53,940 bases of DNA from a virus (Duplodnaviria > Caudoviricetes), in the IMG/VR virus record IMGVR_UViG_3300001533_002608, positions 1 through 53,940 of that record; one strand, given 5' to 3'. A program made the position numbers and the translations under genes. Of this stretch, positions 14,491 to 53,927 are shown piece by piece; within the stretch, counting starts at the first letter, position 1; the number at the start of each line of letters is the position of its first letter. The notes beneath the pieces were generated by a model. That model worked only from the letters and a program-made list of their open reading frames with translations. It was not told the origin of the DNA and searched no databases.

Positions 14491-14649
14491 CACAAAAAAC
14501 ATGTAAGATAATATGGATTAAACATATTAGGGCTGGGAGAGTCCGATGTTAAGCCTGTGGAGTCTAAAACCTCTGGTTCTACTTCGGTAGAAGTAAGTCT
14601 TGTCAATGAAGCAGGAAGATCACCCGTCTTTAGCGGGTGATTAGTTCAC
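14491..14649 (+). mobile_element. orphan TnpB-type reRNA / IS200-IS605 right end, copy 1
   Basis: TnpB-tail-like GLNILGLGESDVKPVE frame, AAGCAGGAA, hairpin CACCCG-TCTTTAG-CGGGTG, end TAGTTCAC; repeated at ~18113 and ~53753. Confidence 0.8.
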
Positions 14650-14720
14650 ATATTTTTCTAATGGACTTATTGTAACAATATATAAATTAATGTAGCATAT
14701 TTACGTAAGAGGAGAACATA

Positions 14721-15374
14721 GTGCCTCATCAAAGAGTTGACATAATAAGTGAAGGTCTAACAAAAATCGGTAGAGCTTATTGTAGACATTGTGATATGGA
14801 CCATTGGGTTGATATAAGAAAATATAATGATTTTATAATTTTAAAGTTTGACGAAATAACTAGAGGAAATTTTCTTTTTGAAAGAATCAAAGATTCTAAA
14901 CGTTTTTTTAAAATAAAAGAGCTAAGAAAAAATGTGAATGCTGTATATTTAGACTTTGCTCAACTTAAGGAGTTATATAACCTATTAGCAGATTTCAACA
15001 GTACAGAAGAGTACGACAAAGAATATTACGACTCGTTGATTTTAAATAACAAGAATGAAAGTATAGTATTGTTTTCTACAAAAGAGATGTTTCTTTCGAT
15101 TGATGTTATCCGCAATGATAAGATCACTTATGTTTTTAGCGTAGATATAGGATGGAAGCTAGAAGATTATAAAGTAAGAAATTTAATTAAAGATTTAAAA
15201 AGATACATAATTAATAATTATAATAATCCATTTTTTAACTATGAAGCTCTATTAGAATTAGAAGAAGAGAAAAAACTCTTATCAGCCATAAAATATTTAA
15301 TAGATTTAAAATGTGTTGATAATACTAATAGCAGGTTCTATAAAGACAAAATGGTATATAGAATATTAGAATAG
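14721..15374 (+). CDS. hypothetical protein
   Basis: GAGGAG RBS, GTG start, 217 aa. Confidence 0.65.
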   Translation: MPHQRVDIISEGLTKIGRAYCRHCDMDHWVDIRKYNDFIILKFDEITRGNFLFERIKDSKRFFKIKELRKNVNAVYLDFAQLKELYNLLADFNSTEEYDKEYYDSLILNNKNESIVLFSTKEMFLSIDVIRNDKITYVFSVDIGWKLEDYKVRNLIKDLKRYIINNYNNPFFNYEALLELEEEKKLLSAIKYLIDLKCVDNTNSRFYKDKMVYRILE

Positions 15375-15384
15375 AGGAGCTGAA

Positions 15385-15918
15385 ATGCTAAAACATTTAT
15401 ATTATCTTAAGTATATGATCCGTCACAAATTTTGGGTCACTTATTATTGTTTTAGAGACGGACTATTTTTGCGTGGAGTTAAGCATGATTGGTCAAAATT
15501 TCTTCCAAGTGAATGGTTCCCTTATGCAAATTATTTCTATGGACCGGAGGGAGAGAAGGTTCGAGCTGCAAGGGAAGAAACAGGTGGCTATTATAAACCA
15601 TATGATACTGGAGATGAAAAGTTTGATTTCGCTTGGCTATTACACCAAAAGAGAAATGATCACCATTGGCAATGGTGGATTATTCCAAAAGACGATGGTG
15701 GATTTAAGACAATGCCGATGAAAGAAAAAGCATGGCGAGAGATGATATGCGATTGGCGTGGAGCTGGTCGAGCACAAGGCTATGGGGATAATACTCCAAT
15801 TTGGTATAAGCAAAATAAAGAAAATATGATTATACACTCTTTCACCAGACATCAAATTGAACAAAAGCTTGTCAATATATTTGGCTATGACGCTATGAAA
15901 GATTCCCTGACAATGTAA
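15385..15918 (+). CDS. HD-fold-like protein (DUF5662-like)
   Basis: RHK...HDWSKF.P.E...AWLLHQKRNDHHWQWW...EMICDWRGAG motif. Confidence 0.75.
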   Translation: MLKHLYYLKYMIRHKFWVTYYCFRDGLFLRGVKHDWSKFLPSEWFPYANYFYGPEGEKVRAAREETGGYYKPYDTGDEKFDFAWLLHQKRNDHHWQWWIIPKDDGGFKTMPMKEKAWREMICDWRGAGRAQGYGDNTPIWYKQNKENMIIHSFTRHQIEQKLVNIFGYDAMKDSLTM

Positions 15919-15920
15919 AA

Positions 15921-16400
15921 ATGAAGCTAATGATGCTAGGAGAAACAACTGGGAATAAGAGGTCTAACAAAGAATATGATTTTTTAGGAACAAATGCAAG
16001 TAGATTCTTATGGATAGAATTAGCAAAATATGATCTTTATAGAGAAGACTTTTACACACATAGTATATTTGGGAACAAGGGCCATAAAAAAAAGTATCTT
16101 ACAGAGGAAGAGTATAGAGATATTCAAATAAATTTAAGTAAAGAAATAATGATGTTAGAGCCTGAATTAACATTATCAGTTGGAAGGTTAACCACTGAAG
16201 AGCTATTACAAAAAAAGCTTGGTGGAGAGTATTATGATATAACTGGAGAAATGTTATATTCCACCAATTATGGTATTTGGTTTGTCCCAACAATTCATCC
16301 ATCTACTATAGCAAGAAACGAAGAAAATTTACCAATATTACAAAACTCAATAGCTAATTTTTATGACTGTTACAGGGAGCTACTTAATGAGAACTCCTAA
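15921..16400 (+). CDS. uracil-DNA glycosylase-like protein
   Basis: LMMLGE..G, FLG..., PELTLSVGR and PTIHPS motifs of the UDG superfamily. Confidence 0.7.
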   Translation: MKLMMLGETTGNKRSNKEYDFLGTNASRFLWIELAKYDLYREDFYTHSIFGNKGHKKKYLTEEEYRDIQINLSKEIMMLEPELTLSVGRLTTEELLQKKLGGEYYDITGEMLYSTNYGIWFVPTIHPSTIARNEENLPILQNSIANFYDCYRELLNENS

Positions 16401-16608
16401 TGATCTACATAATAAAATGTTTGCTGATTATGAATATCGACACAAAAATATGGATCTAAATGTGAAAGCAATTATAAATCCAATAATATCAGATATTTTT
16501 AAATCAGTAGCTACAGTTATGTCGCAAGAGTTAAAAAACGAAAGAGCATATTTAGAGAAGAAAAGTGAAAACATGAGAAGTAATAAAAAGGACAGAGGGA
16601 ACAAGTGA
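16387..16608 (+). CDS. hypothetical protein
   Basis: GGGAG RBS before ATG at 16387. Confidence 0.5.
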   Translation: MRTPNDLHNKMFADYEYRHKNMDLNVKAIINPIISDIFKSVATVMSQELKNERAYLEKKSENMRSNKKDRGNK

Positions 16609-16809
16609 TAGAGAGTGCGAAAGAGTGAAATCAACTCTGTTAGTAAACTATGGTCTTTCCGGTAAAACAATACCTAATATTATCACCGAATATGATACTT
16701 TAGAGCAAATGATAGTACTAGTATGTCAATATTATGAAAATAAAATTAAGTAAATATCCGATGATTATATAACCTATGGATAAAGATAAATACCAAAGAG
16801 GTTATTATA

Positions 16810-17064
16810 ATGAACTTAAGAGAATTATTGCTACAATTTGCCGGTGAGAATGACATCTCATTAAAAGTAGAAAATATAGTCACAACTAGTACGAATAATA
16901 TTTATGTACTGGATGAAATTTCAAATGGAGTTAAGGTGGGCCTATTAGACAACAATAGATTAGAAGAAACTAAAAAAGTAATAACCGAAAAACTAGTTGA
17001 AAATGGATATAAAGTCCACATTTATAATATTGGAGATAATATACTCGACATAGAGGTGAGGTAA
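16810..17064 (+). CDS. hypothetical protein
   Basis: AAGATAA motif at 16783, GAGG RBS; MNLRELL N-terminus. Confidence 0.6.
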   Translation: MNLRELLLQFAGENDISLKVENIVTTSTNNIYVLDEISNGVKVGLLDNNRLEETKKVITEKLVENGYKVHIYNIGDNILDIEVR

Positions 17065-17076
17065 AGGGGTAATAGC

Positions 17077-17484
17077 ATGAAAGTTAATCTAATGGATATA
17101 ACGAAAAAGGTATTATTTGAAGAGATAGATAAGCCTACTAAGGAAGAAGAAAATAAATGGAAAGAAAGTAATAATAATGGCAGTGACAAATTATATTATG
17201 TAATTCGTGGTGAAGACAATGAGATTATAAGATATATTGACACTAAAGTTGTAGAAGATTTTAATAAAGAAAAAGATAAAAATCATCAACCAAAAAAAGT
17301 TGCTGAAATGTTATTTGAAAATATAGGTATAGAAGAATCAGGTGACGAAAATGACGAGGTAACAAATGAGGAGATTGAGGATGAAAGGGGAGAGGCCGAA
17401 GGAGAAACTGGAGAATCTCAATCTACCAGCGATGAAGAAGAAACTCAAAGTGAGAATGAAGTTCCGGAGCAGAGGAAGGCTTAA
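17077..17484 (+). CDS. hypothetical acidic protein
   Basis: 135-aa ORF with Glu-rich tail. Confidence 0.6.
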   Translation: MKVNLMDITKKVLFEEIDKPTKEEENKWKESNNNGSDKLYYVIRGEDNEIIRYIDTKVVEDFNKEKDKNHQPKKVAEMLFENIGIEESGDENDEVTNEEIEDERGEAEGETGESQSTSDEEETQSENEVPEQRKA

Positions 17485-17491
17485 GCCATAA

Positions 17492-18064
17492 ATGAGCAAG
17501 CTGGAGAAACTATCTCTAAAGATAATACATAAAGGTACTAACTATGAGATAGTTAATCCTAATATAATAAAATTATTATGTGAATATATAAGAGGTAAAA
17601 CAGAGTTATCAGTTTTGGAACAAGAAGTAGATAAAGAAATTTTTTATCAAAGAATAATAAAATATGATATAGAATTTCCAGAAGATTTTTATCAACAAAA
17701 TAAAAAAGAAATTGATAAAGATAATTCTAAGAAAGCTATATTTATTAATGCTTTTAATATATTAGATTTTAATAAATTTAAGAGATCTTTAAAAGAAACA
17801 TATCCTGATAAATTTTATGATCCTAACTTTAGATCAAAAATATTTGAGGAGCAAAATGGTAAATGTGCTATATGCAAAACTAATTTAGATGGTAAACTAG
17901 CACATTTACATCATATAAATTATAATAAGCAAGATTGTAATAAATCTAATTTAGTTTTCTTGTGTCCAAGATGCCATGGAAAAACTAATAAAGAAAGGGA
18001 GTTTTGGCAGGGAGTTTTACAGGAGTACAAAGTAAACGATGAAATTTTTACAAGCGATACTTGA
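17492..18064 (+). CDS. HNH endonuclease (zinc-binding type)
   Basis: CAIC...HLHHINY...NLVFLCPRCH. Confidence 0.8.
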   Translation: MSKLEKLSLKIIHKGTNYEIVNPNIIKLLCEYIRGKTELSVLEQEVDKEIFYQRIIKYDIEFPEDFYQQNKKEIDKDNSKKAIFINAFNILDFNKFKRSLKETYPDKFYDPNFRSKIFEEQNGKCAICKTNLDGKLAHLHHINYNKQDCNKSNLVFLCPRCHGKTNKEREFWQGVLQEYKVNDEIFTSDT

Positions 18065-18495
18065 AACAAGAGAAGAAAAAGAAAACGATGTTATCAAGGC
18101 AAAATTTGATAAAGAATTAGGGCTGGGAGAGTCCGAATTTAAGCCTGTGGAGATGAAGACCAATGCTTCTAAGCAATTAGAAGTAAGTCTTGTCAATGAA
18201 GCAGGAAGATCTCCCGTCTTTAGCGGGTGATTAGTTCATAGATAACTATCCATATGGCCAAGAAAGCTATACGGATGTTAATAAATATAAAGAGGCAAAT
18301 AAGATAATTAGTGACTTACAATTATCTTATGCGCGTAATGCAGGTGATCCTCAAAAAGTATTAGATGCAGCAAAAGATCTTTTAGATAAAATGGCTCATG
18401 ATTACGGGGATTACTATAAAGGAAAGACCAACAAAAAATGGAGAGATGCTATGTTGGCGTTAGACAAATTGAAGGAGATTGGAGGAAAATTATAA
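18039..18495 (+). pseudogene. hypothetical gene interrupted by reRNA element copy 2
   Basis: 5' part MKFLQAILE...KFDKEL; 3' part DNYPYGQESY...KEIGGKL* is open 18241-18495 in another frame; removing 121 nt rejoins them. Confidence 0.7.
18113..18239 (+). mobile_element. orphan TnpB-type reRNA / IS200-IS605 right end, copy 2
   Basis: Near-identical to copy 1 from TTAGGGCTGGGAGAGTCCGA to GATTAGTTCA; left boundary uncertain. Confidence 0.8.
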
Positions 18496-18848
18496 TGGGA
18501 AACCTTAATGAGTTTTTAGAAACTTTAAACGAAGAAGCCGGCGAAGAAAATAAAGAAAAGGGTGAAAAGGCAATAAGTGCTGAAAAAGCAGGTGTTGTTC
18601 CATCTTTCTGGAATAAAATACCAGGTAGCGTAAAAGACTTATTTTATTGGTACAGAGAAGCTTTACCTAGTGAAGAGGAAGAGCAACATGGCTTTTATGA
18701 ATTTTTAGACGATGTAGTAAATTACTTGATGTCTTTCTCAATGATGAGTAGTCTTAACAGAGCTGGGAAATTAATTGCCGACTATGACATGAGGGGCTCT
18801 AAAAAAGATGCTAAAGATGCCGAAGAGTCCGAAACCGACGAAGAATAG
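18495..18848 (+). CDS. hypothetical protein
   Basis: GGAGG at 18481 and TAATG overlap with the upstream stop; start at 18495 rather than 18438. Confidence 0.65.
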   Translation: MGNLNEFLETLNEEAGEENKEKGEKAISAEKAGVVPSFWNKIPGSVKDLFYWYREALPSEEEEQHGFYEFLDDVVNYLMSFSMMSSLNRAGKLIADYDMRGSKKDAKDAEESETDEE

Positions 18849-18890
18849 CGACATATTTAGTTAAATAATATATTAATATATGGAGATAAA

Positions 18891-19823
18891 ATGTCGAAAG
18901 GTGTCATAAATGTTAATGAGCAATGTAGCTTTCCTAACGGCTACACTATTACAGATAATAGAATAGAAGATTATTTGCAAAAATTATTGTCGCCGAGTGC
19001 ATACGTCATTTGGCGACAATATTTGCGTTTTTGGGGTGGAGATAAGTCATCTGCTTATCCAAGTCTAGCAACTATATCCAACAGAACTGGGCTATCAGAA
19101 AAAACTATAAGAAGATGTAACAAAGAATTAGTAAAGATCGGGTTTATGACATACATTCCGGGGAATTCTAAAAGAGCAAATCAATATTATTATGTTCCTA
19201 TTGGTGATCTGATGAAGAGATTCTATGGCACGGAATTACCAGAAACTGATAAAACAAACGCTGATAAGCAAAGTTTTATAAAAGAAAAAGATAGTAAAAC
19301 TGAAGACAAAATACGAAAGAAGCTTGAGGAATTAAATGATTATGATAAAGCTTCTTCGCTGGAGTTTATAAGAATCTTTAAGGATGCTTATAAAGACAAA
19401 ATGGGAATAGAATATGGTTTAGAATATTCTGACGTAAACACTCTAACATCTAATATAGATGACGTAAGTAATAATTTTATATTGTATACAGGCTTAGTAC
19501 ATAGAATGTTTAAAACAGATAATAAGTTTATAGTAAATTCCGATTACAGTATGCACTTTTTATTCGTACCAAAAGTAAAGAAAGCCCTAATAGCTGAATA
19601 TTATCAAACAAATTTTGGAAGATGGTTAGCACAAGCAGATAGAAAATTTGAAAAATTAAAAGAAGAGTTTGACAAAGAAATTAAAGACAAAAAAATAACT
19701 GGAGAAGAAGATATAAAAACTTTTGTAGATAAGAATATTGACTTTGGAAGTGGGAATTCGGAAAGAGATAAATTTGTATATGATAATATAATAGAAAAGC
19801 TCAGGGACCATTTTTTGAAGTGA
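18891..19823 (+). CDS. winged-HTH DNA-binding / replication-initiator-like protein
   Basis: AYPSLATIS..TGLSEKTIRRC.KELVK.G HTH pattern. Confidence 0.7.
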   Translation: MSKGVINVNEQCSFPNGYTITDNRIEDYLQKLLSPSAYVIWRQYLRFWGGDKSSAYPSLATISNRTGLSEKTIRRCNKELVKIGFMTYIPGNSKRANQYYYVPIGDLMKRFYGTELPETDKTNADKQSFIKEKDSKTEDKIRKKLEELNDYDKASSLEFIRIFKDAYKDKMGIEYGLEYSDVNTLTSNIDDVSNNFILYTGLVHRMFKTDNKFIVNSDYSMHFLFVPKVKKALIAEYYQTNFGRWLAQADRKFEKLKEEFDKEIKDKKITGEEDIKTFVDKNIDFGSGNSERDKFVYDNIIEKLRDHFLK

Positions 19824-19902
19824 TTATGTTTTTAGTAAAGCTTAAAAGACTGGCTTTTTATAGCCAATATTGCAAAGATAACTGCACAGGAGGTGGTTAT
19901 CT

Positions 19903-20807: not shown

Positions 20808-20809
20808 TA

Positions 20810-21393: not shown

Positions 21394-21415
21394 CAACTAA
21401 GAGGATAAGTGGTTT

Positions 21416-22693: not shown

Positions 22694-22711
22694 AAATATT
22701 GGAAGTAACTA

Positions 22712-23032: not shown

Positions 23033-23043
23033 AGAGGAAATAG

Positions 23044-24438: not shown

Positions 24439-24442
24439 AACA

Positions 24443-28392: not shown

Positions 28393-28675
28393 GTAATATT
28401 ATAGTCAACTACCCTTCCCTAAAGGGAAGGGCTTGTAAAAGCCTAAGTTGACCAGAAGACTAACAGGAGGTTAGGTTGTTAGTAAACGATATTTTAGATG
28501 TAGAAACCCTTGAATGCCGTCCCAGTTCGAGGCTCTTTCGTGGCTCTGTAAGAAGTTCTGAGGTAAAGAACGGTCAACCACAATGTGAAGCTAAAATATC
28601 TTTTCGAGGGAAGGTCGGATTCAATTATAACTCCAATATAATTGATACGCATAACTCTAATAAGGAGGACATAAC
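28384..28675 (+). ncRNA. IscB omegaRNA (HEARO-like), predicted 5' guide ~28384-28403
   Basis: GTCAACTACCC...GTTGACCAG first stem, TGCCGTCCCAGTTCGAGGCTCT and CGAGGGAAG conserved-looking blocks directly upstream of iscB. Confidence 0.85.
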
Positions 28676-29926
28676 TTGAGAGTATATGTCAAAAATCTAA
28701 GGGGTGAGGCTTTAATGCCAACAACCCCACAAAAAGCAAGAACGTTGCTTAAAGCAAAAAAAGCAAAAGTTGTTTCAAGAATACCTTTTGTTATTAAACT
28801 TCTTGTGCCTACGGGAGAAACAAAACAAGAAGTAATTGCCGGAATGGATACAGGAAGTAAAGTAATAGGAACAGCTTGTATTTCAAATAATAAAGTTTTG
28901 TATCAATCGGAAACTATTATTAGAAATGATATTACAAAAAAGATGGAACGAAGAAAAATGTATCGTAGAAATAGAAGATCAAGAAAATGTAGATATAGAA
29001 AGCCAAGATTTCTTAATCGTAAAAATTCTACTAAATTAAATAGACTTGCTCCATCTATTAAAAGTAAAATCGAATCTCATTTAAGAGAAAAGAAGTTTAT
29101 TGAATCTATCTTACCTATATCTTATTGGAAGGTAGAAACAGCAAGTTTTGATATCCATAAAATATCTAATCCTGATGTTAAAAGATGGGAATACCAAAAA
29201 GGGCAACAAAAAGATTTTTATAATGTTAAGGCGTTTGTTTTAAGTCGAGATAGTTATACCTGTCAAAAATGTAAAAGTAAGAAAGGTAAACTTCATGTGC
29301 ATCATATTATTTTTAGAAGTAAAGGTGGAACAGATACCCCAGATAATCTTATTACCTTGTGTGAGGACTGCCACACTAAATTACATAAAGGTGAGTTTGA
29401 AATCAAAGGTATTAAAAGTAAAACAAAACATGCTACAGAAATGGGAATTATTAAATCACAATTAAAAAAGGTGTTTGGGGATTTTGAAGAAACATTTGGG
29501 TATGAGACAAAATATAAAAGAGAGCAAATACTACAATTGCCAAAAACACATTATAATGACGCAATTGCTATATGTTATAGTGATGGAGAATTAGCTGAAC
29601 CAATTAAAACCATATTATACAGAAAGCAAGTTAGTAAAGGCGACTACCAACAGTATAAGGGTAAAAGACCTGAAGTAAAGATACCAACTGGTAAATTATT
29701 TGGTTTTAGAAAATTTGATAAAGTAAAAACACCAGAAGGAATTGGTTTTATTAAGGGTAAGCGGAGTAGTGGATGTTTTGTAATTTCAGATATATTTGGG
29801 AATGTATTCAAAAAAAGTTATAATGCGAAAAAAGATTTAGAAAGAGTTTCAGCAAGAAAAACTATAATTATGGAGGTAGGCGTTTCCTCCCCCGCCTAAA
29901 GGCAGGGGTATCCACGCCGAAAAAGG
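28404..29926 (+). mobile_element. IS200/IS605-superfamily IscB element (no tnpA)
   Basis: Begins GTCAACTACCC with hairpin CCTTCC-CTAAAG-GGAAGG and ends with hairpin CCCCGC-CTAAAG-GCAGGGG before ATGA. Confidence 0.85.
28676..29899 (+). CDS. iscB: RNA-guided endonuclease IscB
   Basis: ALMP (PLMP) N-terminus, RuvC-I GMDTGSK, Arg-rich bridge helix, HNH CQKC...HVHH...NLITLCEDCH, RuvC-III HYNDAIAI. Confidence 0.95.
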   Translation: MRVYVKNLRGEALMPTTPQKARTLLKAKKAKVVSRIPFVIKLLVPTGETKQEVIAGMDTGSKVIGTACISNNKVLYQSETIIRNDITKKMERRKMYRRNRRSRKCRYRKPRFLNRKNSTKLNRLAPSIKSKIESHLREKKFIESILPISYWKVETASFDIHKISNPDVKRWEYQKGQQKDFYNVKAFVLSRDSYTCQKCKSKKGKLHVHHIIFRSKGGTDTPDNLITLCEDCHTKLHKGEFEIKGIKSKTKHATEMGIIKSQLKKVFGDFEETFGYETKYKREQILQLPKTHYNDAIAICYSDGELAEPIKTILYRKQVSKGDYQQYKGKRPEVKIPTGKLFGFRKFDKVKTPEGIGFIKGKRSSGCFVISDIFGNVFKKSYNAKKDLERVSARKTIIMEVGVSSPA

Positions 29927-42534: not shown

Positions 42535-42546
42535 GGTAGCAAAATT

Positions 42547-42876: not shown

Positions 42877-42877
42877 T

Positions 42878-43411: not shown

Positions 43412-43413
43412 TA

Positions 43414-46230
43414 ATGGATTATAATGACAACAGAGAAAGAGATATATTAAAAAAAGCCGAAACTATACAAAAATATTTTAATAAGATTAATATTAGCAGA
43501 ACTGATGACTTACATAGTTATGAGACTAATAGAAAAGAAGATATGTATACGGCTTTTGGTAGCCAGAAAACCTCATTAGAGGGCTTTACATCTGTAGATC
43601 AAAGTCGTATTCAACGCTATAGAGAATATGAGCAAATGGCCTATGTACCAGAACTAAATGCTGGACTAGAGCTATACGCGGATGATGCATCGCTTTACAA
43701 TGATGAAAATAGAGTACTAGAAGTTACCTCTGAAAATCAAGATGTAGTTGATACACTAGAAGATTTATGGTTTAGCTCTTTAGATTTAAATGCCAATCTA
43801 TGGCACATAGTATACAATACATGTAAATATGGCGAAGCATTTTATGAAATTATCCCAGACAGTTTTAAAAACCCAAAGAAAGTAAAATTCATTAGATACA
43901 TTCCTCCTCGTTATATAGCCAGACAGGAGGAAGATGGAAATCTACTTGGTTTCTTGATTAAAACACCTGATAATACTTCTGGTGGTGGAGCAACAGCATA
44001 TTCTATGGCTGGTGGTGGAGAAGAGATCTTTCTTAAGCCATGGCAGATAGTGCACTTTAAGCTAGACGATAAAGAATTTGAGCCATATGGCAAATCAGTA
44101 GTAGAAAATGGCAGATTATCATTTAAACAAATGAAACTAATTGAAGATGCTATGTTAATATATAGAATATCAAGAGCGCCAGAGAGAAGAGTCTTTAATA
44201 TTCCAGTTGGCCAGCTTCCATACAGAGAAGCTATGCAAAAGGTAGAAGACTTTAAGCAGAAATATCGTAAAACTCCATGGATAGATCCGACGTGTACATC
44301 ACTTGACACAGAAATACCATTATTAAATGGTGAAGTTAAAAGCTTAAGAGAACTTATAGAAGATTATGATTCTGGTAAAAAGAATTGGGTATATTCAATT
44401 GACAGAGACAACGGGAATCAAGTCGTTCCAGGTGAGATATTATGGGCAGGAGTTACCAGGAAAAATACAAAAGTACTAAAAATAACATTAGACGACGGAC
44501 AGACATTTAAATTTACACCAGATCATAAATTTCTTATGAGAGATGGTAGTTACAAAGAAGCTCAATACCTTGAAGAAGGTGATTCAATAATGCCCTTGTA
44601 TTCTAAAAAGACTAAGAAAGGATATAAATCGGTTTACAATCCAAAAAGTGGTAAATATTATCCTAGATACATGATGTCAGCTAGATATACAAATGATAAT
44701 CTTTGGAATTCTGACTGGAAGAAAAGTTTAAATGAAGAAGAGTATAATAGAATTGTCGAAGGAATACAGATCGATGATGTAATAGATGGAGCTATTCAGT
44801 TTAACACTAGAAAACAAGTAGCAGAATATTTAAACTGCAATCCCGGAGTTATATTGAACAGACTTTATGAAAACGGATATTCTAATTGGCAAGAATTTTA
44901 TAGAGATGTTAATGGTTTAGAAAATAAAGAAGATTATATTAGAAGTGCAGTGGAATCTTCTAATAATCCTAAGGAATTAAAAACGATTATTGGTTGTAGT
45001 TTACCCACTGCTTATAAGTATTTTGATCAATATAAAAGTGAACCAGTAAATCATAAAATAGTTTCTATTGGAGAAGATGAAGAAGCTATAGACACTGGAA
45101 CATTAACTATAAATCATTATCATAATTTTGCTATAGGTAGACAAGACTCTGGAGTATTCGTTAAAAATTCTGGAGAAATAAACTATAAAGCTAATCCATT
45201 ATCAATAAATGATGATTTTTTCTTGCCACAGAGACCTGATGGTACTGGAGTAAAAATAGATTATATGCAGGGTGGTCAGCAATTAGGCGAAATAGACGAT
45301 GCTAGATATTTTAAAGAAAAAATACTTAGAACAATGAGAATTCCTCTTTCCTATCTAACTGGAGAAATGCAAGGAGATGTTGCAAGAACTTCTTTAGCGA
45401 CAATGGATGTTAGATTTGCAAAGACAATAGAAAGAATCCAAAAGATGATAATTAAAGGATTAGAAAAGGTATCAATAATAGAATTAGCATTTAAGAGATT
45501 TAGAATAGATGATATGTATGATTTTCAATTAAAATTAACTACTCCATCTAAGATCTATGAGATGCAAGAATTAGAAACTTTAACCCAAAAATTAAATGTA
45601 ATACAAACAGCAATGGGATTAGCTGATGATAACGGAAAACCATATTTGCCAAGAGAATGGCTATATAAGTATATTAACAATTTTTCAGAAAAAGAAATAT
45701 CAGATATTAAATTAATGCAACAAACAGAAATGATAGAAAAACAAGAAGATGCAAGAAGGTTAGAATTAATGCAGCAACAAGGCGCTGAGCCAGGGGAAGC
45801 CGGTGGTGGTGAAATGCCTGGCGGTGGCCCTGGTCTTGCCGAGGTGCCAATAGGTGAGCCTGGTGGAGCCGAAGGACTTGGTGGCGAAGAAGCCGGTGGC
45901 GAAGAAGCCGGTGGTGAAGCTGAAGGTGGAGGCGAAGAAGGTACTCCTGTAGCAGCAGCTAGCGGTGGAGGAGCAGCAGTGGATGTTGCAAGTAAGATAC
46001 TAAATATCGCAGGGAACGATTTTCTCCTAGAAAATGAAGATAGTATCCGAGAAGTCATCAATTTTGTAAAACAACAGGGAGAAACTCACAAGATAACTAA
46101 AGATAATAACAAATATAATAGGCGTAAGAAAAGAATTTATGAGAATGGTTTTAATCAGCTATTCGTAAGAGGTGAATTCAGAGGATTAATAAGGCGCCGA
46201 AAAAAAGAAAATAATGTTCTTAAAGACTAA
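43414..46230 (+). CDS. portal protein (T4 gp20-like) containing an intein
   Basis: RYREYEQM, PYGKS, EDAMLIYRISRAPERRVF, DDFFLP.R, D.RF..TI.RIQ; intein at 44293-45168. Confidence 0.92.
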   Translation: MDYNDNRERDILKKAETIQKYFNKINISRTDDLHSYETNRKEDMYTAFGSQKTSLEGFTSVDQSRIQRYREYEQMAYVPELNAGLELYADDASLYNDENRVLEVTSENQDVVDTLEDLWFSSLDLNANLWHIVYNTCKYGEAFYEIIPDSFKNPKKVKFIRYIPPRYIARQEEDGNLLGFLIKTPDNTSGGGATAYSMAGGGEEIFLKPWQIVHFKLDDKEFEPYGKSVVENGRLSFKQMKLIEDAMLIYRISRAPERRVFNIPVGQLPYREAMQKVEDFKQKYRKTPWIDPTCTSLDTEIPLLNGEVKSLRELIEDYDSGKKNWVYSIDRDNGNQVVPGEILWAGVTRKNTKVLKITLDDGQTFKFTPDHKFLMRDGSYKEAQYLEEGDSIMPLYSKKTKKGYKSVYNPKSGKYYPRYMMSARYTNDNLWNSDWKKSLNEEEYNRIVEGIQIDDVIDGAIQFNTRKQVAEYLNCNPGVILNRLYENGYSNWQEFYRDVNGLENKEDYIRSAVESSNNPKELKTIIGCSLPTAYKYFDQYKSEPVNHKIVSIGEDEEAIDTGTLTINHYHNFAIGRQDSGVFVKNSGEINYKANPLSINDDFFLPQRPDGTGVKIDYMQGGQQLGEIDDARYFKEKILRTMRIPLSYLTGEMQGDVARTSLATMDVRFAKTIERIQKMIIKGLEKVSIIELAFKRFRIDDMYDFQLKLTTPSKIYEMQELETLTQKLNVIQTAMGLADDNGKPYLPREWLYKYINNFSEKEISDIKLMQQTEMIEKQEDARRLELMQQQGAEPGEAGGGEMPGGGPGLAEVPIGEPGGAEGLGGEEAGGEEAGGEAEGGGEEGTPVAAASGGGAAVDVASKILNIAGNDFLLENEDSIREVINFVKQQGETHKITKDNNKYNRRKKRIYENGFNQLFVRGEFRGLIRRRKKENNVLKD
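44293..45168 (+). mobile_element. intein (292 aa) in portal
   Basis: Starts CTSLDTEIPLLNG, block B TPDHKFL, ends HNFAI...VFVKN before Ser; exteins rejoin as PWIDPT|SGEINYKANP. Confidence 0.9.
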
Positions 46231-46244
46231 TAGGAGGACAACTC

Positions 46245-47543: not shown

Positions 47544-47544
47544 T

Positions 47545-48527: not shown

Positions 48528-48539
48528 GAGGTTGCTTCA

Positions 48540-49475: not shown

Positions 49476-49496
49476 TTACTCATAGGAGGAAACTAA

Positions 49497-51408
49497 ATGC
49501 TTTTTGATTATAATAAATTGCAAAAAGAACAAAAAGGCCAGATTCTTGGTAAGTGGAAACCATTCCTTAAAGGAATCAATGATGACCACTTGAAAGAAAG
49601 TACGGCTATGTTGCTTGAGAACCAAGCACAATATCTCTTAGAAGAACCACAGACCCAAGGTGGGGATGTAGTTGGTATACAGAAAATTTTGCTACCGATC
49701 GTAAGAAGGGTTTTCCCGAACCTCAATGGGGTCCTCTTAACGTAAGTTAGGAGTAAACTTTCGGTGAATTGCTGGGAAGCTTTCAAAAAGAAATGTTAAA
49801 TACATTTCAGAGCTAATCAGCAGCCAAGATTGCCAAAGTTATATAAATGTAGGCAATAAGGTTCAGAGACTAGATGGTGAGGATATAACGACCAATAATC
49901 CATCCACGAGTGCCGAACATCCTATCTATTAGGATGAAGATATAGTCCGACCTTACGGGATGATAAACCGTAAGAACTAAGAGATAAAGAGCTCTTAGGA
50001 TAACATAAGCGTTGCGAACAACCTAGTTTCAGTTCAGCCGCTTGCTGGACCGACTGGAGTTATTTTCTATCTAAAATACCAATTTGCTTCTTCGAAATCT
50101 GAAACCGCTGCTGGTACCGAGTACAGTATGTATTCAGAAAATCCAAGTGATGAACTTGCGAACCAGGGTTACAACCCTTACTACTCTAGCGATGATGTTA
50201 GAGAAACTGATATTACCGTTAACAACGGTGGTGGTAGCTCCGCATCTAGCTTTACTTATAATATTGATACAGACTGGGCAGATGGAATTAACGGCTCCAA
50301 CTGGACAGATTCAACTAACCCATTACTTAAGAGAGTAAGATTGAGATTTAAGGCTTACGATGGATCTGGAAATAGCTCATCTTTCTTAATTCAATATGAT
50401 GGCAGATCTGGTAAGAATGCATGGCAGATCAAAGAAACTGACAGAAGCGGTTCTGGTGTTCCATTATTTGGCGATGCAGCAGGAGCTGTATTTGGCGATT
50501 TAAGTGCAGGCGATGCTGGCTATACATCTAAAGATGGAGTTCTATCAACTGCTAGCGTAAGTTTTGATGATAGTTCAAAAGAAATCACATTTACTCCTAC
50601 CGATGCGGACAGTGCTCTTGGTACTGGGCCAACAGTAGAAGGAATGGAAGCATTCTATACTTACAAACAAGAAGGAACTGAAAACATTCCTGATATGTCA
50701 ATCTCTATCAGCCAGTATCCAATAACAGTTAAGAGCAGAAAGCTCAAAGCTACCTGGACAAACGAGGCTGAACAAGACCTCAAAGCTTATCACGGCTTAA
50801 ATGCTGACGCTGAGCTAACAGCACTTGTTTCTAATGAAATGATTGCTGAAATCGACAGGGAAATCGTAAGGACAGTTATGGACATAGTTCCGATGACTTC
50901 TTTTAGATATGTTGATTGGGGAGCTGATACTACTAACAATACTTCAGGAAACTACTTAGATAGACATAGACACCTAACACAAACCTTTGCTGAGCTAAGC
51001 AATGAAATCTATAGAAAATCTAAGATCGGTCCAGCTAACTGGATCATTACTTCACCTAAGCTCGCATCCTATCTAGAAACTCTAGAGGGATTCGTTGCTG
51101 CACCGGCAGCTACTCAAGGTGGATTAGGAATCGTTAAAGCTGGTGATTTCCGTGGAAATTACACAGTTTATAAAGATCCTCTTTTCCCACCAAATAAGGC
51201 TGTTATGGGTCACAAATCACCTGCATCTCCTTTCGGAGCTGGAGTGGTTTACGCACCTTTCGTAACTCAGGTAACACCTACCTTGTACGGTCCTAACGAC
51301 TTTACACCTAGAAAGGGATTCCTCGCTAGATATGGTCTTGTGCAGGTCCCACTCGGGGATTTACTCTATGGTATGGTAAGCGTATCTGATTTACCAGGTT
51401 CTGAATAA
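49497..51408 (+). CDS. major capsid protein (T4 gp23-like), spliced: 49497-49723 + 50010-51408 = 541 aa
   Basis: Exons join as PIVRRVFPNL|VANNLVSVQPLAGPTGVIFYL; SRKLKATWT.EAEQDL, EIDREI, YAPF, F.PRKG...RYG. Confidence 0.93.
49724..50009 (+). ncRNA. group I intron (286 nt, IA-like, no homing endonuclease)
   Basis: 5' exon ends in U, intron ends in G; P AATTGCTGGGAA, Q AATCAGCAGCC, R TCAGAGACTA, S AAGATATAGTCC; P1 ACCU/GGGU; P10 CAAUG/CGUUG. Confidence 0.93.
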
Positions 51409-51433
51409 ATCGATATAATATAATAAGTTATAC

Positions 51434-51463
51434 AGGGCAGTCATTAATGGCTGCCCTTTTTTT
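51434..51463 (+). terminator. intrinsic terminator after capsid gene
   Basis: AGGGCAGTCA/TGGCTGCCCT stem plus T-run. Confidence 0.85.
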
Positions 51464-51544
51464 GTGTAAAGTTATTTTTATAAAGTCACTTGTTTCGCTC
51501 CGTAAATGATAAGATAATAGCATATTTGATATAAAGGAAGAAAA

Positions 51545-51625
51545 ATGAGCAAGATTATTAGGATATGGGCTTCTGAATTAGAGGAAAGAGCAGAGCAGGT
51601 ATTAGAGCAATTAGATATAGTATAA
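51545..51625 (+). CDS. 26-aa peptide
   Basis: AAGATAA at 51511, AAGGAAG RBS, MSKIIRIWASELEERAEQVLEQLDIV*, then terminator. Confidence 0.5.
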   Translation: MSKIIRIWASELEERAEQVLEQLDIV

Positions 51626-51632
51626 TTTTATT

Positions 51633-51659
51633 AGCCGGTGACTTATCACCGGCTTTTTT
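51633..51659 (+). terminator. intrinsic terminator
   Basis: AGCCGGTGA/TCACCGGCT plus T-run. Confidence 0.85.
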
Positions 51660-51708
51660 GTGCGCTAAATATCAAGATAATAGCATAAATTATAACTAGG
51701 AGAATCCA

Positions 51709-51981
51709 ATGAAGTTAGAAGAGGTTCTTATGTCCAGTGGTATGTATAAAAAAATGAAAGACGTATTTCTGGGAATGGTATTAAATAAAAATAAAATTCC
51801 AAATTTTAAAGAAGTATTAAACAAATTGAAAGAAGAATATCCATCTATAAAAACCAACTTAGAAACAGACTTAAAAGGATATCGAGATTTTAAAAGAGAA
51901 AACAGAAAAAGTAAGTTAAAACAATACGAAGATCTTTATAAAAAGTTGGTTAAAGACTACAAGGAAAGAACTTTATATTAA
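51709..51981 (+). CDS. hypothetical protein
   Basis: AAGATAA at 51674, AGGAG RBS. Confidence 0.6.
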   Translation: MKLEEVLMSSGMYKKMKDVFLGMVLNKNKIPNFKEVLNKLKEEYPSIKTNLETDLKGYRDFKRENRKSKLKQYEDLYKKLVKDYKERTLY

Positions 51982-52045
51982 TGAAGATAAAAAAAGATCT
52001 TCACAAAAGACACAAAAGTATTGACAGCTTCACAAAGATAAATCT

Positions 52046-52212
52046 GTAAGGAACACTTACAAGAAGATGACAGGTAGCTTATTAGGTAAAGTGATGACGC
52101 TTATGTTTCCCTTTGAGGGCGCCTTATTTTGGAAACTAGTCATAGAAAGCTGGATCATTCCCAGTTCCTGTAAAGTTCTCTTGTAAGATAGTTTCTTTCA
52201 ACTAATCCTTAC
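52046..52212 (+). ncRNA. rod-shaped structured RNA, 6S-RNA-like architecture
   Basis: Nested stems AAGGAAC/GTTTCTT, CTTACAAGA/TCTTGTAAG, ACAGG/CCTGT, ATGAC/GTCAT, GTTTCC/GGAAAC around a central bubble; AAGATAA at 52035. Confidence 0.55.
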
Positions 52213-52311
52213 GAATTATGGAGGCGCGATGAAGTTCGTAATTTAAACCTTTTACCGTCGTTGACGGAAATATTCTTCTCGACGGGAGGTGAAATTGGAA
52301 AGTTATTCTTT

Positions 52312-52339
52312 AAGAGGGCAGCGTATGCTGCCCTTTCTT
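52312..52339 (+). terminator. intrinsic terminator
   Basis: AGGGCAGC-GTAT-GCTGCCCT followed by TTCTT. Confidence 0.75.
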
Positions 52340-52364
52340 GCGCATAATTATTTTTATAAAAACA

Positions 52365-52598
52365 ATGAAAAAAATTGAATATTGCACACATACAGATTGT
52401 ATAGCTCATCCTCAAAATCCAAATAGTTCACCCGCTCAAAGAATAATACTTAGAGTTGAGGATACCGATATAGAAGTAGAGATATCTTTTCCATGCTTAA
52501 TATGTGATAAAGCTAAAAAAGTAGATATGAAAGAAGCATTAAAAAAAGCTTTTGTAAAAAATAACCTAAAAGATTCTAAAGCTTCGACTAGTATTTAA
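52365..52598 (+). CDS. small Cys/His-rich hypothetical protein
   Basis: CTHTDCIAH...CLIC; ATG at 52365. Confidence 0.5.
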   Translation: MKKIEYCTHTDCIAHPQNPNSSPAQRIILRVEDTDIEVEISFPCLICDKAKKVDMKEALKKAFVKNNLKDSKASTSI

Positions 52599-52607
52599 TA
52601 TGTATAT

Positions 52608-53027
52608 ATGGAACATATCTTAACCGATAAAGAAAAAATTGATTCATGGATTGATTTAGTAGAATATAACGAGTTATATCACCCTCCATTTAATTTTAGA
52701 CAAACAGTACAAAATATATTAAACTCAATGAATATTAAATTCACTAATACTGGTAGCGTAATAATGGGCGCCCCTCCATTAGTAGTTATTAACGAGGTTG
52801 AGGGAGTCAAAAAACTATTTGGCAAGATGACTGACCAAGAATTAGCACCAACTGTAGTTAGTATGTTAGTTGGAATAATACATTTTACTGATATAAGAAC
52901 GTGTTATTGCGGTTGGTTAAAAATAATTGAAATTTTTAATAGCAGATTTAACTATTCTATACCTAAAAAAATTATTCCGCGTTATATTAGCGAAGATACA
53001 TTTAATATCACAAAAGAATTTTCGTGA
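52608..53027 (+). CDS. hypothetical protein
   Basis: 139-aa ORF. Confidence 0.55.
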   Translation: MEHILTDKEKIDSWIDLVEYNELYHPPFNFRQTVQNILNSMNIKFTNTGSVIMGAPPLVVINEVEGVKKLFGKMTDQELAPTVVSMLVGIIHFTDIRTCYCGWLKIIEIFNSRFNYSIPKKIIPRYISEDTFNITKEFS

Positions 53028-53039
53028 TAGTGGTATAAT

Positions 53040-53546
53040 ATGAATATGGAGGACATAATGGACAAAGAAAACTATGTTAGCAATTCCTTTCAAGGCAAGA
53101 TTCAAGTATCATTAGCTAATATTTCAAGAAGCTCAGAGGATAAATTTTCTATAGTAAGTATGGAGTATATTCCTCAAACTTTCAAATGTGAACTTTGTGG
53201 ACACAGCCCATGTCTTTATGCTTTTAATGTTAAAAATCAAGAAACTGATAAGACAATTAAAGTCGGAAGTGAATGTGTTAATCATTTTAGGGGTGAATGT
53301 GATATAGATATTGCAGAAGGATTGAAGAAAAGAATTAAATCCGTCACTAGAAAAATGAAAAGATACTTGAAAAAGTATATGGATAAAGAAGATTATAAAT
53401 CTATGAGCAAAGAAAGAAAAAGAGAGATTACTGTAGAATTATTTATGAGATTTCAAAATAAAGAAATTCTTCGCAATGAAAACCAGAAAAAATCAAGACT
53501 TACAAAAGAAGATGTAGAAGCGGTACTAAGAAATAATTTACATTAA
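53040..53546 (+). CDS. hypothetical zinc-binding protein
   Basis: CELCGH..C...VGSECV..F; GGAGG before the ATG at 53058 suggests a later start. Confidence 0.6.
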   Translation: MNMEDIMDKENYVSNSFQGKIQVSLANISRSSEDKFSIVSMEYIPQTFKCELCGHSPCLYAFNVKNQETDKTIKVGSECVNHFRGECDIDIAEGLKKRIKSVTRKMKRYLKKYMDKEDYKSMSKERKREITVELFMRFQNKEILRNENQKKSRLTKEDVEAVLRNNLH

Positions 53547-53708
53547 GTCGTTTGGCTTTCTAGCAGTATTCCCTGTTTTCATACACTCTGCATAATGTTT
53601 CAATTTTCCGTCTTGAAAACGTGATTTCATTTTTATAGTACCGCCCCAACGGGAGATAATTTCCTGAGCTCCATCTCTTCTAGCATTTTTGCTTATGCTA
53701 CGTGCCAT
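53538..53708 (-). CDS. small basic hypothetical protein (56 aa)
   Basis: GGAGG RBS and AAGATAA motif on the minus strand; MARSISKNARRD... Confidence 0.65.
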   Translation of the reverse strand: MARSISKNARRDGAQEIISRWGGTIKMKSRFQDGKLKHYAECMKTGNTARKPNDLM

Positions 53709-53752
53709 TAAAAATCCTCCAAAAATAAGATTTAGATTCTTATCTTTGCTAA

Positions 53753-53927
53753 GTGAACTAATCACCCGCTAAAGACGGGCCGCTAAAGACGGGCGATCTT
53801 CCTGCTTCATTGTCCAAACTTGCTTCTAATGAATTAGAACCAGAGGTTTTAGACTCCACAGGCTTAACATCGGACTCTCCCAGCCCTAATTCTCTTAATC
53901 CATATATTATCTTACATGTTTTTTGTG
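53753..53927 (-). mobile_element. orphan TnpB-type reRNA / IS200-IS605 right end, copy 3
   Basis: Reverse complement matches copy 1 including the 24-nt leader CACAAAAAACATGTAAGATAATAT; may extend past the window edge. Confidence 0.8.

What the first reader, a model, noticed from the sequence alone, without database searches (positions are those of the whole stretch)
14491..53927. Three dispersed orphan TnpB-type guide RNAs with different guides, two behind the phage promoter-like motif
Seen: three ~130-170-nt copies (14491-14649 +, 18113-18239 +, 53753-53927 -) of a tnpB 3' tail plus IS605-type right end, with no tnpB or tnpA in the window. The 3' flanks differ: ATATTTTTCTAATGGACTTA, AGATAACTATCCATATGGCC and TTAGCAAAGATAAGAATCTA. 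Copies 1 and 3 share a 24-nt leader containing AAGATAA fused directly to the tail, as if the whole tnpB CDS had been deleted. Known: TnpB reRNA is this scaffold plus the flanking DNA as guide. Inference: either a phage-driven, dispersed guide repertoire for a trans-acting TnpB/TldR-like protein, or minimal RNA-only parasites that borrow TnpB and TnpA.
Basis: partly seen in the sequence, partly recalled or inferred. Interest (0 to 1): 0.8.

Follow-up and report, generated by a model that had tools for sequence, protein, structure and literature searches.

The report
Guide-RNA-only transposon relics in a phage
A fragment of a large T4-like phage carries three protein-less leftovers of a TnpB transposon that keep only its guide-RNA scaffold and right end; this kind of element is already known, and here one copy splits a phage gene.

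Summary
The window is an incomplete T4-like phage contig (CheckV 27%). It holds exactly three copies of a ~125-nt structured module: the last ~40 codons of an IS605-family tnpB plus the transposon right end. A covariance model built without them scores them at 132-141 bits; the next hit scores 15.

Full TnpBs of 416-424 aa with 82-89% identical tails occur in other viral and metagenome contigs, some beside a Y1 TnpA.

- **Copies 1 and 3** share one internal-deletion junction. It fuses the tnpB start region, which carries AAGATAAT (the most intergenic-enriched octamer here), to the tail. A sister contig shows copy 3 keeps the left end; copy 1 does not.
- **Copy 2** is a 5'-truncated relic that splits a conserved ~115-aa phage gene.
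- **Relatives:** eight independent junctions all keep 127-198 nt, which is the whole scaffold and little more.

I found no tnpB or tnpA in the 54 kb, no RNA data and no empty-site DNA. Copy 1 is a chimera with three broken pairs. Copy 3 carries a 14-nt duplication.

Best reading: these are standalone omega-RNA modules or relics, usable only with a TnpB supplied in trans. This is a known kind (standalone omega-RNAs, PATEs), here in a phage. The guide-repertoire reading is unproven.

The parts
14445..14473 (+). Sigma-70-like site (TTTACA, 17 nt, GATAAT) just upstream of copy 1. It contains a second AAGATAAT at 14466-14473. Context only.
   Evidence: 10 of 12 matches. Site counts in the region are not above shuffles (29 against 22.7 +/- 4.8), so this is no evidence of function.
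14491..14526 (+). Leader of copy 1, shared with copy 3. It is a remnant of the tnpB 5' region, with AAGATAAT (14505-14512) and the vestigial tnpB start ATGG (14513-16). No left-end hairpin lies upstream.
   Evidence: The full elements show the same octamer 3-6 nt before the tnpB ATG. No left-end likeness upstream: local alignment score 24 against 21.3 +/- 3.2 in shuffles. Left-end pattern: 0 matches.
14515..14649 (+). Copy 1: omega-RNA scaffold plus right end (tail ORF 14527-14640, right end finishes in GTTCAC). It is a chimera of the 5' half of one subtype and the 3' half of the other, with 31 of 34 pairs kept.
   Evidence: R1 141.4 bits. Pairs per copy. The MFE fold departs from the consensus. 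Homology to full elements reaches 138 nt before the right end.
14650..14669 (+). Would-be guide of copy 1 (the 3' flank). Intergenic, 72 nt before ORF 14721-15374.
   Evidence: The only match with at most 1 mismatch in 1.15 Mb held is itself.
17492..18064 (+). HNH endonuclease gene (190 aa) directly upstream. It overlaps the start of the gene that copy 2 interrupts. Context.
   Evidence: PHROG HNH families, best 3.4e-10. ORF.
18039..18116 (+). First 26 codons of a conserved ~115-aa phage gene, now fused in frame to the tnpB tail (64-aa open frame 18036-18230).
   Evidence: Aligns with residues 1-26 of P0009-P0012. ORF.
18105..18239 (+). Copy 2: scaffold plus right end only (homology from about 18111; right end finishes in GTTCAT). 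It has no leader and no left end, and keeps 33 of 34 pairs.
   Evidence: R1 132.1 bits. (consensus fold, z -3.4). 129 nt retained. No tnpB or left-end likeness upstream.
18240..18259 (+). Would-be guide of copy 2. It lies on the codons for the conserved ..DNYPYGQ.. motif of the interrupted gene.
   Evidence: No second match.
18235..18495 (+). 3' part (86 codons, no start codon) of the interrupted ~115-aa gene. Six residues (FGKVK+1) are missing between the two parts.
   Evidence: 67-84% identity over 99-100% of its length to four proteins of 113-115 aa. Alignment.
53753..53901 (-). Copy 3: scaffold plus right end, with 34 of 34 pairs kept. A 14-nt tandem duplication (53767-53794) enlarges the loop of the terminal hairpin.
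   Evidence: R1 136.6 bits.. The duplication is absent from the same locus in the sister record L002.
53902..53940 (-). Leader of copy 3 (AAGATAAT at 53906-53913), cut by the contig end. In the sister record the left-end hairpin follows about 95 nt further on.
   Evidence: The L002 left end matches the L003 left end at 86% over 58 nt, E 1e-12.
53733..53752 (-). Would-be guide of copy 3. It leads into a 56-codon ORF (53708-53541, minus strand).

Best explanation
The three copies are protein-less derivatives of an IS605-family (tnpA/tnpB) insertion sequence that lives in large aquatic phages. Each keeps the ~125-nt structured omega-RNA (reRNA) scaffold, which overlaps the last ~40 codons of tnpB, plus the transposon right end.

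**Shown here**
- Copies 1 and 3 descend from one internal deletion. It joined the tnpB start region to codon ~376, and the product was then copied to a second site.
- Copy 2 is a separate 5' truncation of an element that had landed inside a ~115-aa phage gene. The truncation lies at a short repeat, AAAGAA.

**Inferred**
- All three lie in the direction of the flanking genes, so they would be transcribed. Copies 1 and 3 also sit directly behind the AAGATAAT motif.
- The resulting RNA would carry 16-20 nt of adjacent phage DNA as its guide.
- With a TnpB supplied in trans, the complex would cut alleles that lack the insertion (TTTAT followed by the flank). The TnpB could come from an intact copy in the unassembled 73% of this phage, from a co-infecting relative or from the host.
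- Repair from the carrier genome would then copy the module, and its neighbouring markers, into the cut genome. This is homing without a nuclease gene of its own.
- Without a TnpB the modules are inert scars. Copy 1 is probably already impaired.
For: **Identity**
- The tail matches residues 372/375-416 of P0001, just past its last Pfam domain, which ends at residue 372.
- 7 of the 8 hits to the tail are 331-424-aa proteins carrying TnpB Pfam domains.
- P0001 matches ISDra2 TnpB at E 3e-74 and shows the GLDMS, VENLN and DRDQNAG motifs.
- A full element in L003 has a left-end hairpin, tnpB and the same right end. A Y1 TnpA sits beside tnpB in L020 (PF01797, 2e-32).

**RNA structure**
- The 34-pair structure has 94.6% of cells paired, against 79.4% in shuffles.
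- 24 of 34 pairs show changes on both sides, and 0 of 500 shuffles reach any of the measures. Slid controls give 33-47%.
- Copies 2 and 3 fold like the full element.

**Deletion junction and left end**.

**Retention**
- 10 standalone copies with a readable 5' limit keep 127-198 nt, none more. They represent 8 independent junctions.
- Of the 8 metagenome pattern hits, 5 are tail-only, 2 are full and 1 is cut.

**TAM and right-end motif**
- TTTTAT precedes the left end in 7 of 7 cases.
- TTTAT and TTCAC are the TAM and TEM reported for G. stearothermophilus elements (passages in PMC10055086).

**Copy 2 in a gene**.

**Further copies in the sample**: the summed depth of pieces fitting the element is about 5x (copy 1) and about 3x (copy 2) that of the flanks. 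The tool warns that this is not a copy number.

**Precedent**: standalone omega-RNAs are reported to work in trans (PMC10691335, passage read).
Against: - There is no tnpB or tnpA in the 53.9-kb record, and no tnpB in the 25.7-kb sister record.
- No RNA run holds the stretch, so transcription is untested.
- No contig joins across an element, and no DNA of an uninterrupted allele could be fetched.
- Copy 1 has 3 broken pairs in one helix and its MFE fold is not the consensus.
- Copy 2 has a U-U mismatch. Copy 3 has a 14-nt duplication.
- Copies 1 and 2 lack a left end, so TnpA cannot move them.
- Relics that have lost the scaffold altogether also exist: single-hairpin remnants in L032 and L033.
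- Copy 2's left junction can be explained by a chance repeat.
- The more complete relative G002 has 2 tnpB genes and no standalone copy.
Confidence: 0.55

Rival explanations
1. The copies are inert scars. They are decay products of once-complete tnpB elements, with no present activity. The scaffold survives only because deletions happened to end there and the relics are young.
For: - Every window copy has a defect: copy 1 keeps 31 of 34 pairs and misfolds, copy 2 has a U-U mismatch, and copy 3 has a 14-nt duplication.
- No TnpB or TnpA lies in about 80 kb.
- Copies 1 and 2 have no left end.
- Copy 2's junction lies at a short repeat shared by the native gene and tnpB.
- Scaffold-less single-hairpin relics exist.
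- The interrupted gene's 3' part is still open and 84% identical to a homologue, which fits a recent event.
Against: - Eight independent 5' junctions all fall 127-198 nt from the right end of a ~1270-nt gene-plus-end, and none retains more. By my own rough estimate, uniformly placed breakpoints would give this by chance less than once in 10^5.
- Most standalone relatives keep 33-34 of 34 pairs.
- The deletion derivative behind copies 1 and 3 multiplied after losing tnpB.
Confidence: 0.3
2. The copies are a domesticated guide repertoire. The phage keeps one TnpB (or a dead TldR-like derivative) elsewhere and uses several dispersed, late-promoter-driven guide genes. These would exclude related phages at several loci or regulate neighbouring genes.
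For: - AAGATAAT, directly before copies 1 and 3, is the most intergenic-enriched octamer of the window. 9 of 16 plus-strand sites are intergenic with the elements masked (P 8e-7). 6 of 16 lie 5-60 nt before ORF starts (P 2e-6).
- At least 4 guide-only loci occur in about 80 kb.
- All are co-oriented with the flanking genes.
- Copy 2's guide lies on a conserved coding motif.
Against: - The motif belongs to the transposon's own tnpB 5' region in 5 of 5 full elements from other contigs.
- No TnpB-like gene is seen.
- Related TnpBs have intact catalytic motifs, so nothing points to a TldR.
- No guide matches anything but its own flank.
- Copy 2 destroys a gene rather than serving one.
- Copy 1 is damaged.
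Confidence: 0.12
3. The copies are an assembly artefact: repeat-induced chimeras of a metagenome assembly rather than real insertions in one genome.
For: - The window ends inside copy 3.
- The sister contig begins and ends in copies.
- Logan contigs break inside the elements.
- Copy 3 and its counterpart in L002 differ by 11 mismatches and a gap inside the element, while the 69-nt flank is identical.
Against: - Copies 1 and 2 are internal to the contig.
- Both of their flank-element junctions are covered by independent Logan contigs of 2.6-10.9 kb in two runs, which may be the source sample.
- Copy 2's two flanks are the two halves of one known gene.
Confidence: 0.03

Closest known systems
Standalone omega-RNAs of OMEGA (TnpB/IscB) systems. 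Source: Altae-Tran et al. 2021, as summarised in PMC10691335; I read the passage only.
   Same: The loci hold a guide-RNA scaffold plus a transposon end, with no effector or transposase gene. They occur at several sites, each with its own flank as guide. They are reported to work in trans with a compatible effector.
   Different: - Those were described in cellular genomes that also hold effector loci. Here the setting is a T4-like phage fragment with no effector seen.
- Two of the three copies lack the left end.
- One copy interrupts a gene.
PATE-like elements of IS200/IS605 in Geobacillus stearothermophilus (Meers et al., PMC10055086; passages read).
   Same: They are minimal non-autonomous derivatives without genes that 'often encode omega-RNAs' needing TnpB in trans. 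The TAM (TTTAT) and right-end motif (TTCAC) are the same as inferred here.
   Different: PATEs keep both ends and are moved by TnpA. Only copy 3 (through its sister record) shows a left end. Copies 1 and 2 are right-end-only.
ISDra2 TnpB and its reRNA (PDB 8bf8, 8exa, 8h1j).
   Same: The related full-length TnpB P0001 matches it at E 3e-74 over residues 6-382. In both, the guide RNA overlaps the 3' end of tnpB and the right end.
   Different: The window has only the RNA part. The TAM is TTTAT-like, whereas the ISDra2 TAM is TTGAT (recalled, not checked here).
Free-standing homing endonuclease genes of T-even phages (Seg, Mob), as reviewed in PMC13565253 (passages read).
   Same: They are selfish insertions between or within phage genes that spread by cutting the insertion-free allele in mixed infection and drag flanking markers along. 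An HNH gene sits beside copy 2.
   Different: Here the locus would supply only the RNA specificity, and the nuclease would have to come from elsewhere. No cleavage has been shown.
TldR, the nuclease-dead TnpB repressors with adjacent guide RNAs (PMC10705468; abstract only).
   Same: A TnpB-type scaffold is used with a guide outside a mobile context.
   Different: TldR guides lie next to their protein gene and the protein lacks RuvC residues. No such gene is present here, and the relatives keep D/E/D.

Membership tests
IS200/IS605-family TnpB omega-RNA (reRNA) scaffold with right end | Overlaps the 3' end of the tnpB reading frame | tested here: met
   The three tails match residues 374-416, 372-416 and 375-416 of TnpB P0001. 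They show 82-89% identity to TnpBs of 416-424 aa.
IS200/IS605-family TnpB omega-RNA (reRNA) scaffold with right end | Conserved secondary structure supported by covariation | tested here: met
   34 pairs, 94.6% paired, 24 pairs with changes on both sides, 0 of 500 shuffles. R1 scores of 132-141 bits. No Rfam family matches at the gathering threshold.
IS200/IS605-family TnpB omega-RNA (reRNA) scaffold with right end | Subterminal hairpin and a fixed end motif about 9 nt after it | tested here: met
   The terminal 10-pair hairpin is followed by TTAGTTCAC (TTCAT in copy 2). TTCAC is the TEM reported in PMC10055086.
IS200/IS605-family TnpB omega-RNA (reRNA) scaffold with right end | Transcribed, processed and bound by TnpB | not testable with these tools
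   No RNA holder is listed. No protein partner is in the record.
PATE / mobilisable standalone omega-RNA | No protein-coding gene between the ends | tested here: met
   Only 127-198 nt of tnpB remain. There are no TnpB domains in the window.
PATE / mobilisable standalone omega-RNA | Both a left-end and a right-end hairpin | tested here: not met
   Copies 1 and 2 have no left end. For copy 3 the left end is seen only in the sister record L002, because the window is cut.
PATE / mobilisable standalone omega-RNA | The same derivative present at more than one site | tested here: met
   Copies 1 and 3 share the deletion junction and leader at different loci. A further leader-bearing copy with another upstream sequence appears as a loose end at 14494.
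PATE / mobilisable standalone omega-RNA | Cognate TnpB/TnpA in the same genome | tested here: inconclusive
   None in 53.9 kb, and no tnpB in the 25.7-kb sister record. The record is 27% complete.
TldR-type RNA-guided repressor locus | Nuclease-dead TnpB-like gene next to the guide RNA | tested here: not met
   There is no TnpB-like gene. The related proteins keep the RuvC motifs.
IStron (group I intron fused to an IS605/IS607 element) | Group I intron fold around the element, so that the interrupted gene is restored by splicing | tested here: not met
   Rfam finds a group I intron only at 49703-49974 and none at copy 2. The two halves of the interrupted gene are in different frames and 6 residues are missing.

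The most novel reading that the evidence does not exclude
A T4-like phage may run a one-nuclease, many-guides homing and exclusion system. A single TnpB, in the unassembled part of the genome, would be served by at least four dispersed guide-only genes. Two of these are driven directly by the phage's own AAGATAAT (possibly late) promoter. The phage, or the elements, would then cut several loci of related phages in mixed infections and convert them. This would be a natural intermediate between a transposon with one guide and an array-based system. The precise trimming of 8 independent relics down to the scaffold would be the footprint of selection for guide-only spread.
Probability: 0.15. Interest if true: 0.75.

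Novelty: new member of a known kind. Interest (0 to 1): 0.4.

Why it matters
Standalone omega-RNAs are known, but their biological role is called unknown in the literature I read (PMC10691335). Phages that recombine freely in mixed infections are the setting where a guide-only element could spread by homing without carrying a nuclease.

This window offers concrete, testable loci:
- three guides with defined flanks;
- an inferred TAM;
- one target inside a conserved gene whose intact form exists elsewhere.

The regular trimming of relatives to just the scaffold hints at selection on the RNA module. If there is no activity, the window is simply a well-documented case of IS605 decay in a phage crowded with selfish elements: an intron, an intein, IscB and an HNH gene.

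Tried and rejected
**Searches for relatives and empty sites**
- Phage collection: no match for the 4.1-kb region (near mode), for the element (distant mode) or for the 86-aa fragment.
- IMG/VR: no relative of the 217-aa neighbour gene or of the interrupted gene. No DNA of an empty site was therefore obtained. All 8 viral scans are used.
- Genome collection: the right-end pattern found nothing.

**Sequencing runs**
- No RNA holder is listed.
- No contig joins across an element. The two joints listed have 21-nt sides and are not at the elements.

**Local tests**
- A left-end remnant upstream of copy 1, and more tnpB upstream of copy 2: not above shuffles.
- Second targets for the four guides: none with at most 1 mismatch except a chance 1-mismatch hit in an archaeal locus without a TAM.
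- Sigma-70-type promoter and terminator scans: not above shuffles.
- Homologues of the HNH gene or of the neighbours in held loci: none.

**Readings rejected**
- IStron, TldR and assembly artefact (see Membership tests and Rival explanations).
- Using copy 3 against L002 as orthologues to test for selection. Their flanks are identical but the interior differs by 8%, which points to conversion between copies or to assembly mixing.

- Supplements of papers were not opened. The extended data of PMC10055086 on PATEs and TAM/TEM may bear on the comparison.

Full report
**Setting**

The window is a whole IMG/VR virus record of 53,940 nt, estimated 27% complete. It is about 30% G+C, with nearly all genes on the plus strand. 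It belongs to a distant T4-like phage:
- a gp23-type major head protein, about 31% identical to those of T4-like cyanophages;
- a T4-type portal, E 9e-74.

No near relative is in the phage collection.

**Observation**

They align over about 125 nt. Model R1, built from 11 related sequences from other records, finds exactly three hits in the window on both strands with filters off. They score 141.4, 136.6 and 132.1 bits, and the next hit scores 14.9. The three 3' flanks differ as quoted. None has a second match with at most 1 mismatch in the window.

**What the module is**

The reading frame through each copy ends in ..NEAGRSPVFSG-stop. A search with the copy 2 tail against longer proteins returned 8 hits among 22 candidates. 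Seven are proteins of 331-424 aa carrying the three TnpB Pfam domains, 69-89% identical to the tail. One is a 116-aa fragment.

P0001 is the closest:
- It matches ISDra2 TnpB structures at E 3e-74 and shows the RuvC motifs.
- Its last Pfam domain ends at residue 372.
- The window tails match residues 372/375-416.

What is kept is therefore the C-terminal extension that lies outside the protein domains, plus the transposon end.

A complete element in a 160-kb viral contig (L003) shows the layout. In order it has TTTTAT, the left-end hairpin, about 70 nt, tnpB (419 aa), and the same tail and hairpin ending in GTTCAC. In L020 (and, by eye, in L013 and L004/L033) a Y1 transposase lies divergently beside tnpB (PF01797, E 2e-32). 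The family is therefore IS605-type.

**RNA structure**

I aligned 16 sequences: the 3 window copies, 7 standalone copies, 5 full elements and 1 cut copy.
- A 34-pair, six-helix structure has 94.6% of cells paired, against 79.4% in shuffles.
- 24 pairs show changes on both sides.
- No shuffle in 500 reaches any measure.
- Slid controls give 33-47%.

Two rows (L004 and L018 copy B) are a divergent subtype that aligns poorly, with 25 and 20 of 34 pairs. They were counted and left out of the model.

Per copy:
- **Copy 1** keeps 31 of 34 pairs. It joins the 5' half of one subtype to the 3' half of the other, which breaks three pairs of one helix. Its MFE fold is not the consensus.
- **Copy 2** keeps 33 of 34 pairs and folds like the full element.
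- **Copy 3** keeps 34 of 34 pairs but carries a 14-nt tandem duplication that enlarges the terminal loop. The duplication is absent at the same locus in L002.

**Origin of copies 1 and 3**

Both have the same 31-33-nt leader. It holds AAGATAAT and then ATGG, running straight into ..GATTAA.. and the tail. In 5 of 5 full elements the same octamer lies 3-6 nt before the tnpB ATG(G). The sequence ..TTATGG.. recurs at codon ~376.

A 25.7-kb viral contig (L001/L002) overlaps the window's end. Its 69-nt unique flank is identical to the window's. It shows that the copy 3 element still has the left-end hairpin and 5' region, at 86% over 58 nt to L003.

Copy 1 has no left end. The alignment score is within shuffles and the left-end pattern is absent. 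Because copies 1 and 3 share the junction at different loci, the derivative multiplied after it lost tnpB. A loose end at 14494 in the runs shows a further leader-bearing copy with a third upstream sequence. I cannot explain why the three contexts diverge at nearly the same base, beside a TTCAC in copy 3.

**Origin of copy 2**

The 86-codon open frame that begins at the right end has no start codon. It is 67-84% identical, over its whole length, to four proteins of 113-115 aa. Their first 26 residues align with the 26 codons directly upstream of copy 2. Six residues (FGKVK+1) are missing between the two parts.

Copy 2 therefore interrupts a conserved phage gene of unknown function. The 5' part is now fused in frame to the tail, giving a 64-aa frame.

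Two points about the junctions:
- The left junction lies at AAAGAA, which is shared by the native gene (..KE|FGK..) and by tnpB (..KE|LGLG..).
- If the right junction is original, rejoining TTTAT to the flank would restore ..D-F-I-D-N-Y-P-Y-G.. in frame. This is an inference.

The would-be guide lies on the most conserved motif of that protein. An HNH endonuclease gene overlaps the start of the same gene.

**TAM**

TTTTAT, followed by A, precedes the left end in 7 of 7 left ends examined: L003, L015 full, L015 standalone, L002, L032 and L033 twice. It often forms the T-run of a terminator. TTTAT as TAM and TTCAC as right-end motif are reported for G. stearothermophilus elements (PMC10055086, passages).

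**Are standalone copies more than scars?**

Evidence for:
- Among RE-pattern hits in metagenomes, 5 of 8 are tail-only, 2 are full and 1 is cut.
- 10 standalone copies with a readable 5' limit keep 127, 127, 129, 138, 138, 138, 146, 156, 181 and 184-198 nt. They represent 8 independent junctions, and none keeps more of the ~1270 nt.
- Three further copies were cut by record ends, and one weaker copy (L017b) gave no alignment and is not counted.
- Helix 1 starts about 120 nt from the end, so every one keeps the whole structure.

Evidence against:
- Two single-hairpin relics without the scaffold exist.
- G002 (69% complete) has 2 tnpB genes, each with its own scaffold, and no standalone copy.
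- Each window copy has a blemish.

**The motif**

AAGATAAT occurs 16 times on the plus strand and 4 on the minus strand. The total of 20 compares with 11.0 +/- 3.5 expected, and 1 of 100 shuffles reaches it. With the elements masked it is the most intergenic-enriched octamer: 9 of 16 sites, P 8e-7. Six of 16 sites lie 5-60 nt before ORF starts (P 2e-6), several of them before structural genes. The T4 late motif TATAAATA (recalled) has 0 intergenic sites of 8.

It may be a promoter core of this phage, but this is untested. It is also part of the transposon's own 5' region, so it was not captured by the relics.

**Copy number and assembly**

In two runs that may be the source, pieces fitting the element sum to about 131-153 (copy 1 bin) and 70-73 (copy 2 bin), against 22-28 in the flanks. 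The tool warns that this is not a copy number. Contigs break inside the elements but cover all four flank junctions of copies 1 and 2. No contig skips an element.

**Comparison with what is known**

Standalone omega-RNAs that lack effector and transposase, and that work in trans, are described, and their role is called unknown (PMC10691335, passage). PATE-like elements that 'often encode omega-RNAs' needing TnpB in trans are noted in PMC10055086. Homing between co-infecting phages is listed as a possible mode in a 2026 review (PMC13565253, passages). My searches found no paper on right-end-only omega-RNA relics in T4-like phages. This covers only the held open-access library.

**Verdict**

The elements are guide-RNA-only derivatives of an IS605-family element: one PATE-like lineage (copies 1 and 3) and one truncated insertion in a gene (copy 2). 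Function in trans is plausible but unshown. The find is a new member of a known kind and of moderate interest.

Noticed in passing
window 28404-28619 (+) and 28676-29899 (+): A HEARO RNA (Rfam RF02033, 101 bits, E 1e-19) lies directly before a 407-aa IscB-type gene (RRXRR 2e-56, HNH 1e-13). The phage therefore carries a complete IscB guide-RNA nuclease locus of the other OMEGA branch.
   Followed up: partly
window 49703-49974 (+), between 49497-49745 and 49999-51408: A group I intron (Rfam, 84 bits, E 4e-20) appears to split the gp23-like major head gene. The first frame ends ..LPIVRRVFPNL.. and the second resumes ..ANNLVSVQPL...
   Followed up: partly
window 43414-46230 (+): The T4-type portal gene (Portal_T4, 9e-74) holds an intein splicing domain at residues 301-574 (1e-14).
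   Followed up: no
window 17492-18064 (+): A free-standing HNH endonuclease gene overlaps by 26 nt the start of the gene that copy 2 interrupts. Two selfish elements share one locus.
   Followed up: partly
window, e.g. 1214, 2288, 27227, 37095, 42194, 51511, 51674 (+): AAGATAAT is the most intergenic-enriched octamer. It lies 12-44 nt before several gene starts, often preceded by TTKYRC about 11 nt upstream. It is a candidate phage promoter core. TATAAATA has no intergenic site.
   Followed up: partly
L032:6480-6560 (+); L033:6990-7070 (+): These are single-hairpin relics of about 45 nt. They join the 5' flank of the left end, one hairpin and the last bases of the right end, right after TTTTAT. 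They look like products of recombination between the two near-identical end hairpins.
   Followed up: no
L018:4467-4901 (-): Two standalone scaffolds of different subtypes stand in tandem, about 115 nt apart. L015 holds a full element, a standalone copy and a third copy in 13.5 kb.
   Followed up: no
window 14494 (loose end in runs X1, X2): A further leader-bearing copy in the sample has yet another upstream sequence. The three contexts diverge at almost the same base, next to a TTCAC in copy 3. This is unexplained.
   Followed up: no
L001:14100-14212 (+ strand ORF meeting the right end): In the sister contig, a convergent ORF ends in a TGA supplied by the reverse complement of the right end (GTGAAC). 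That copy therefore also touches a coding region.
   Followed up: no
They come from cyanobacteria, actinomycetes, Asgard and DPANN archaea and others, so the core of this omega-RNA is very widespread. Rfam has no family for it at the gathering threshold.
   Followed up: no
window 2332-8598 (+): A 2088-aa protein has PA14, GLEYA and laminin-G-like lectin domains. It is probably a host-binding fibre.
   Followed up: no
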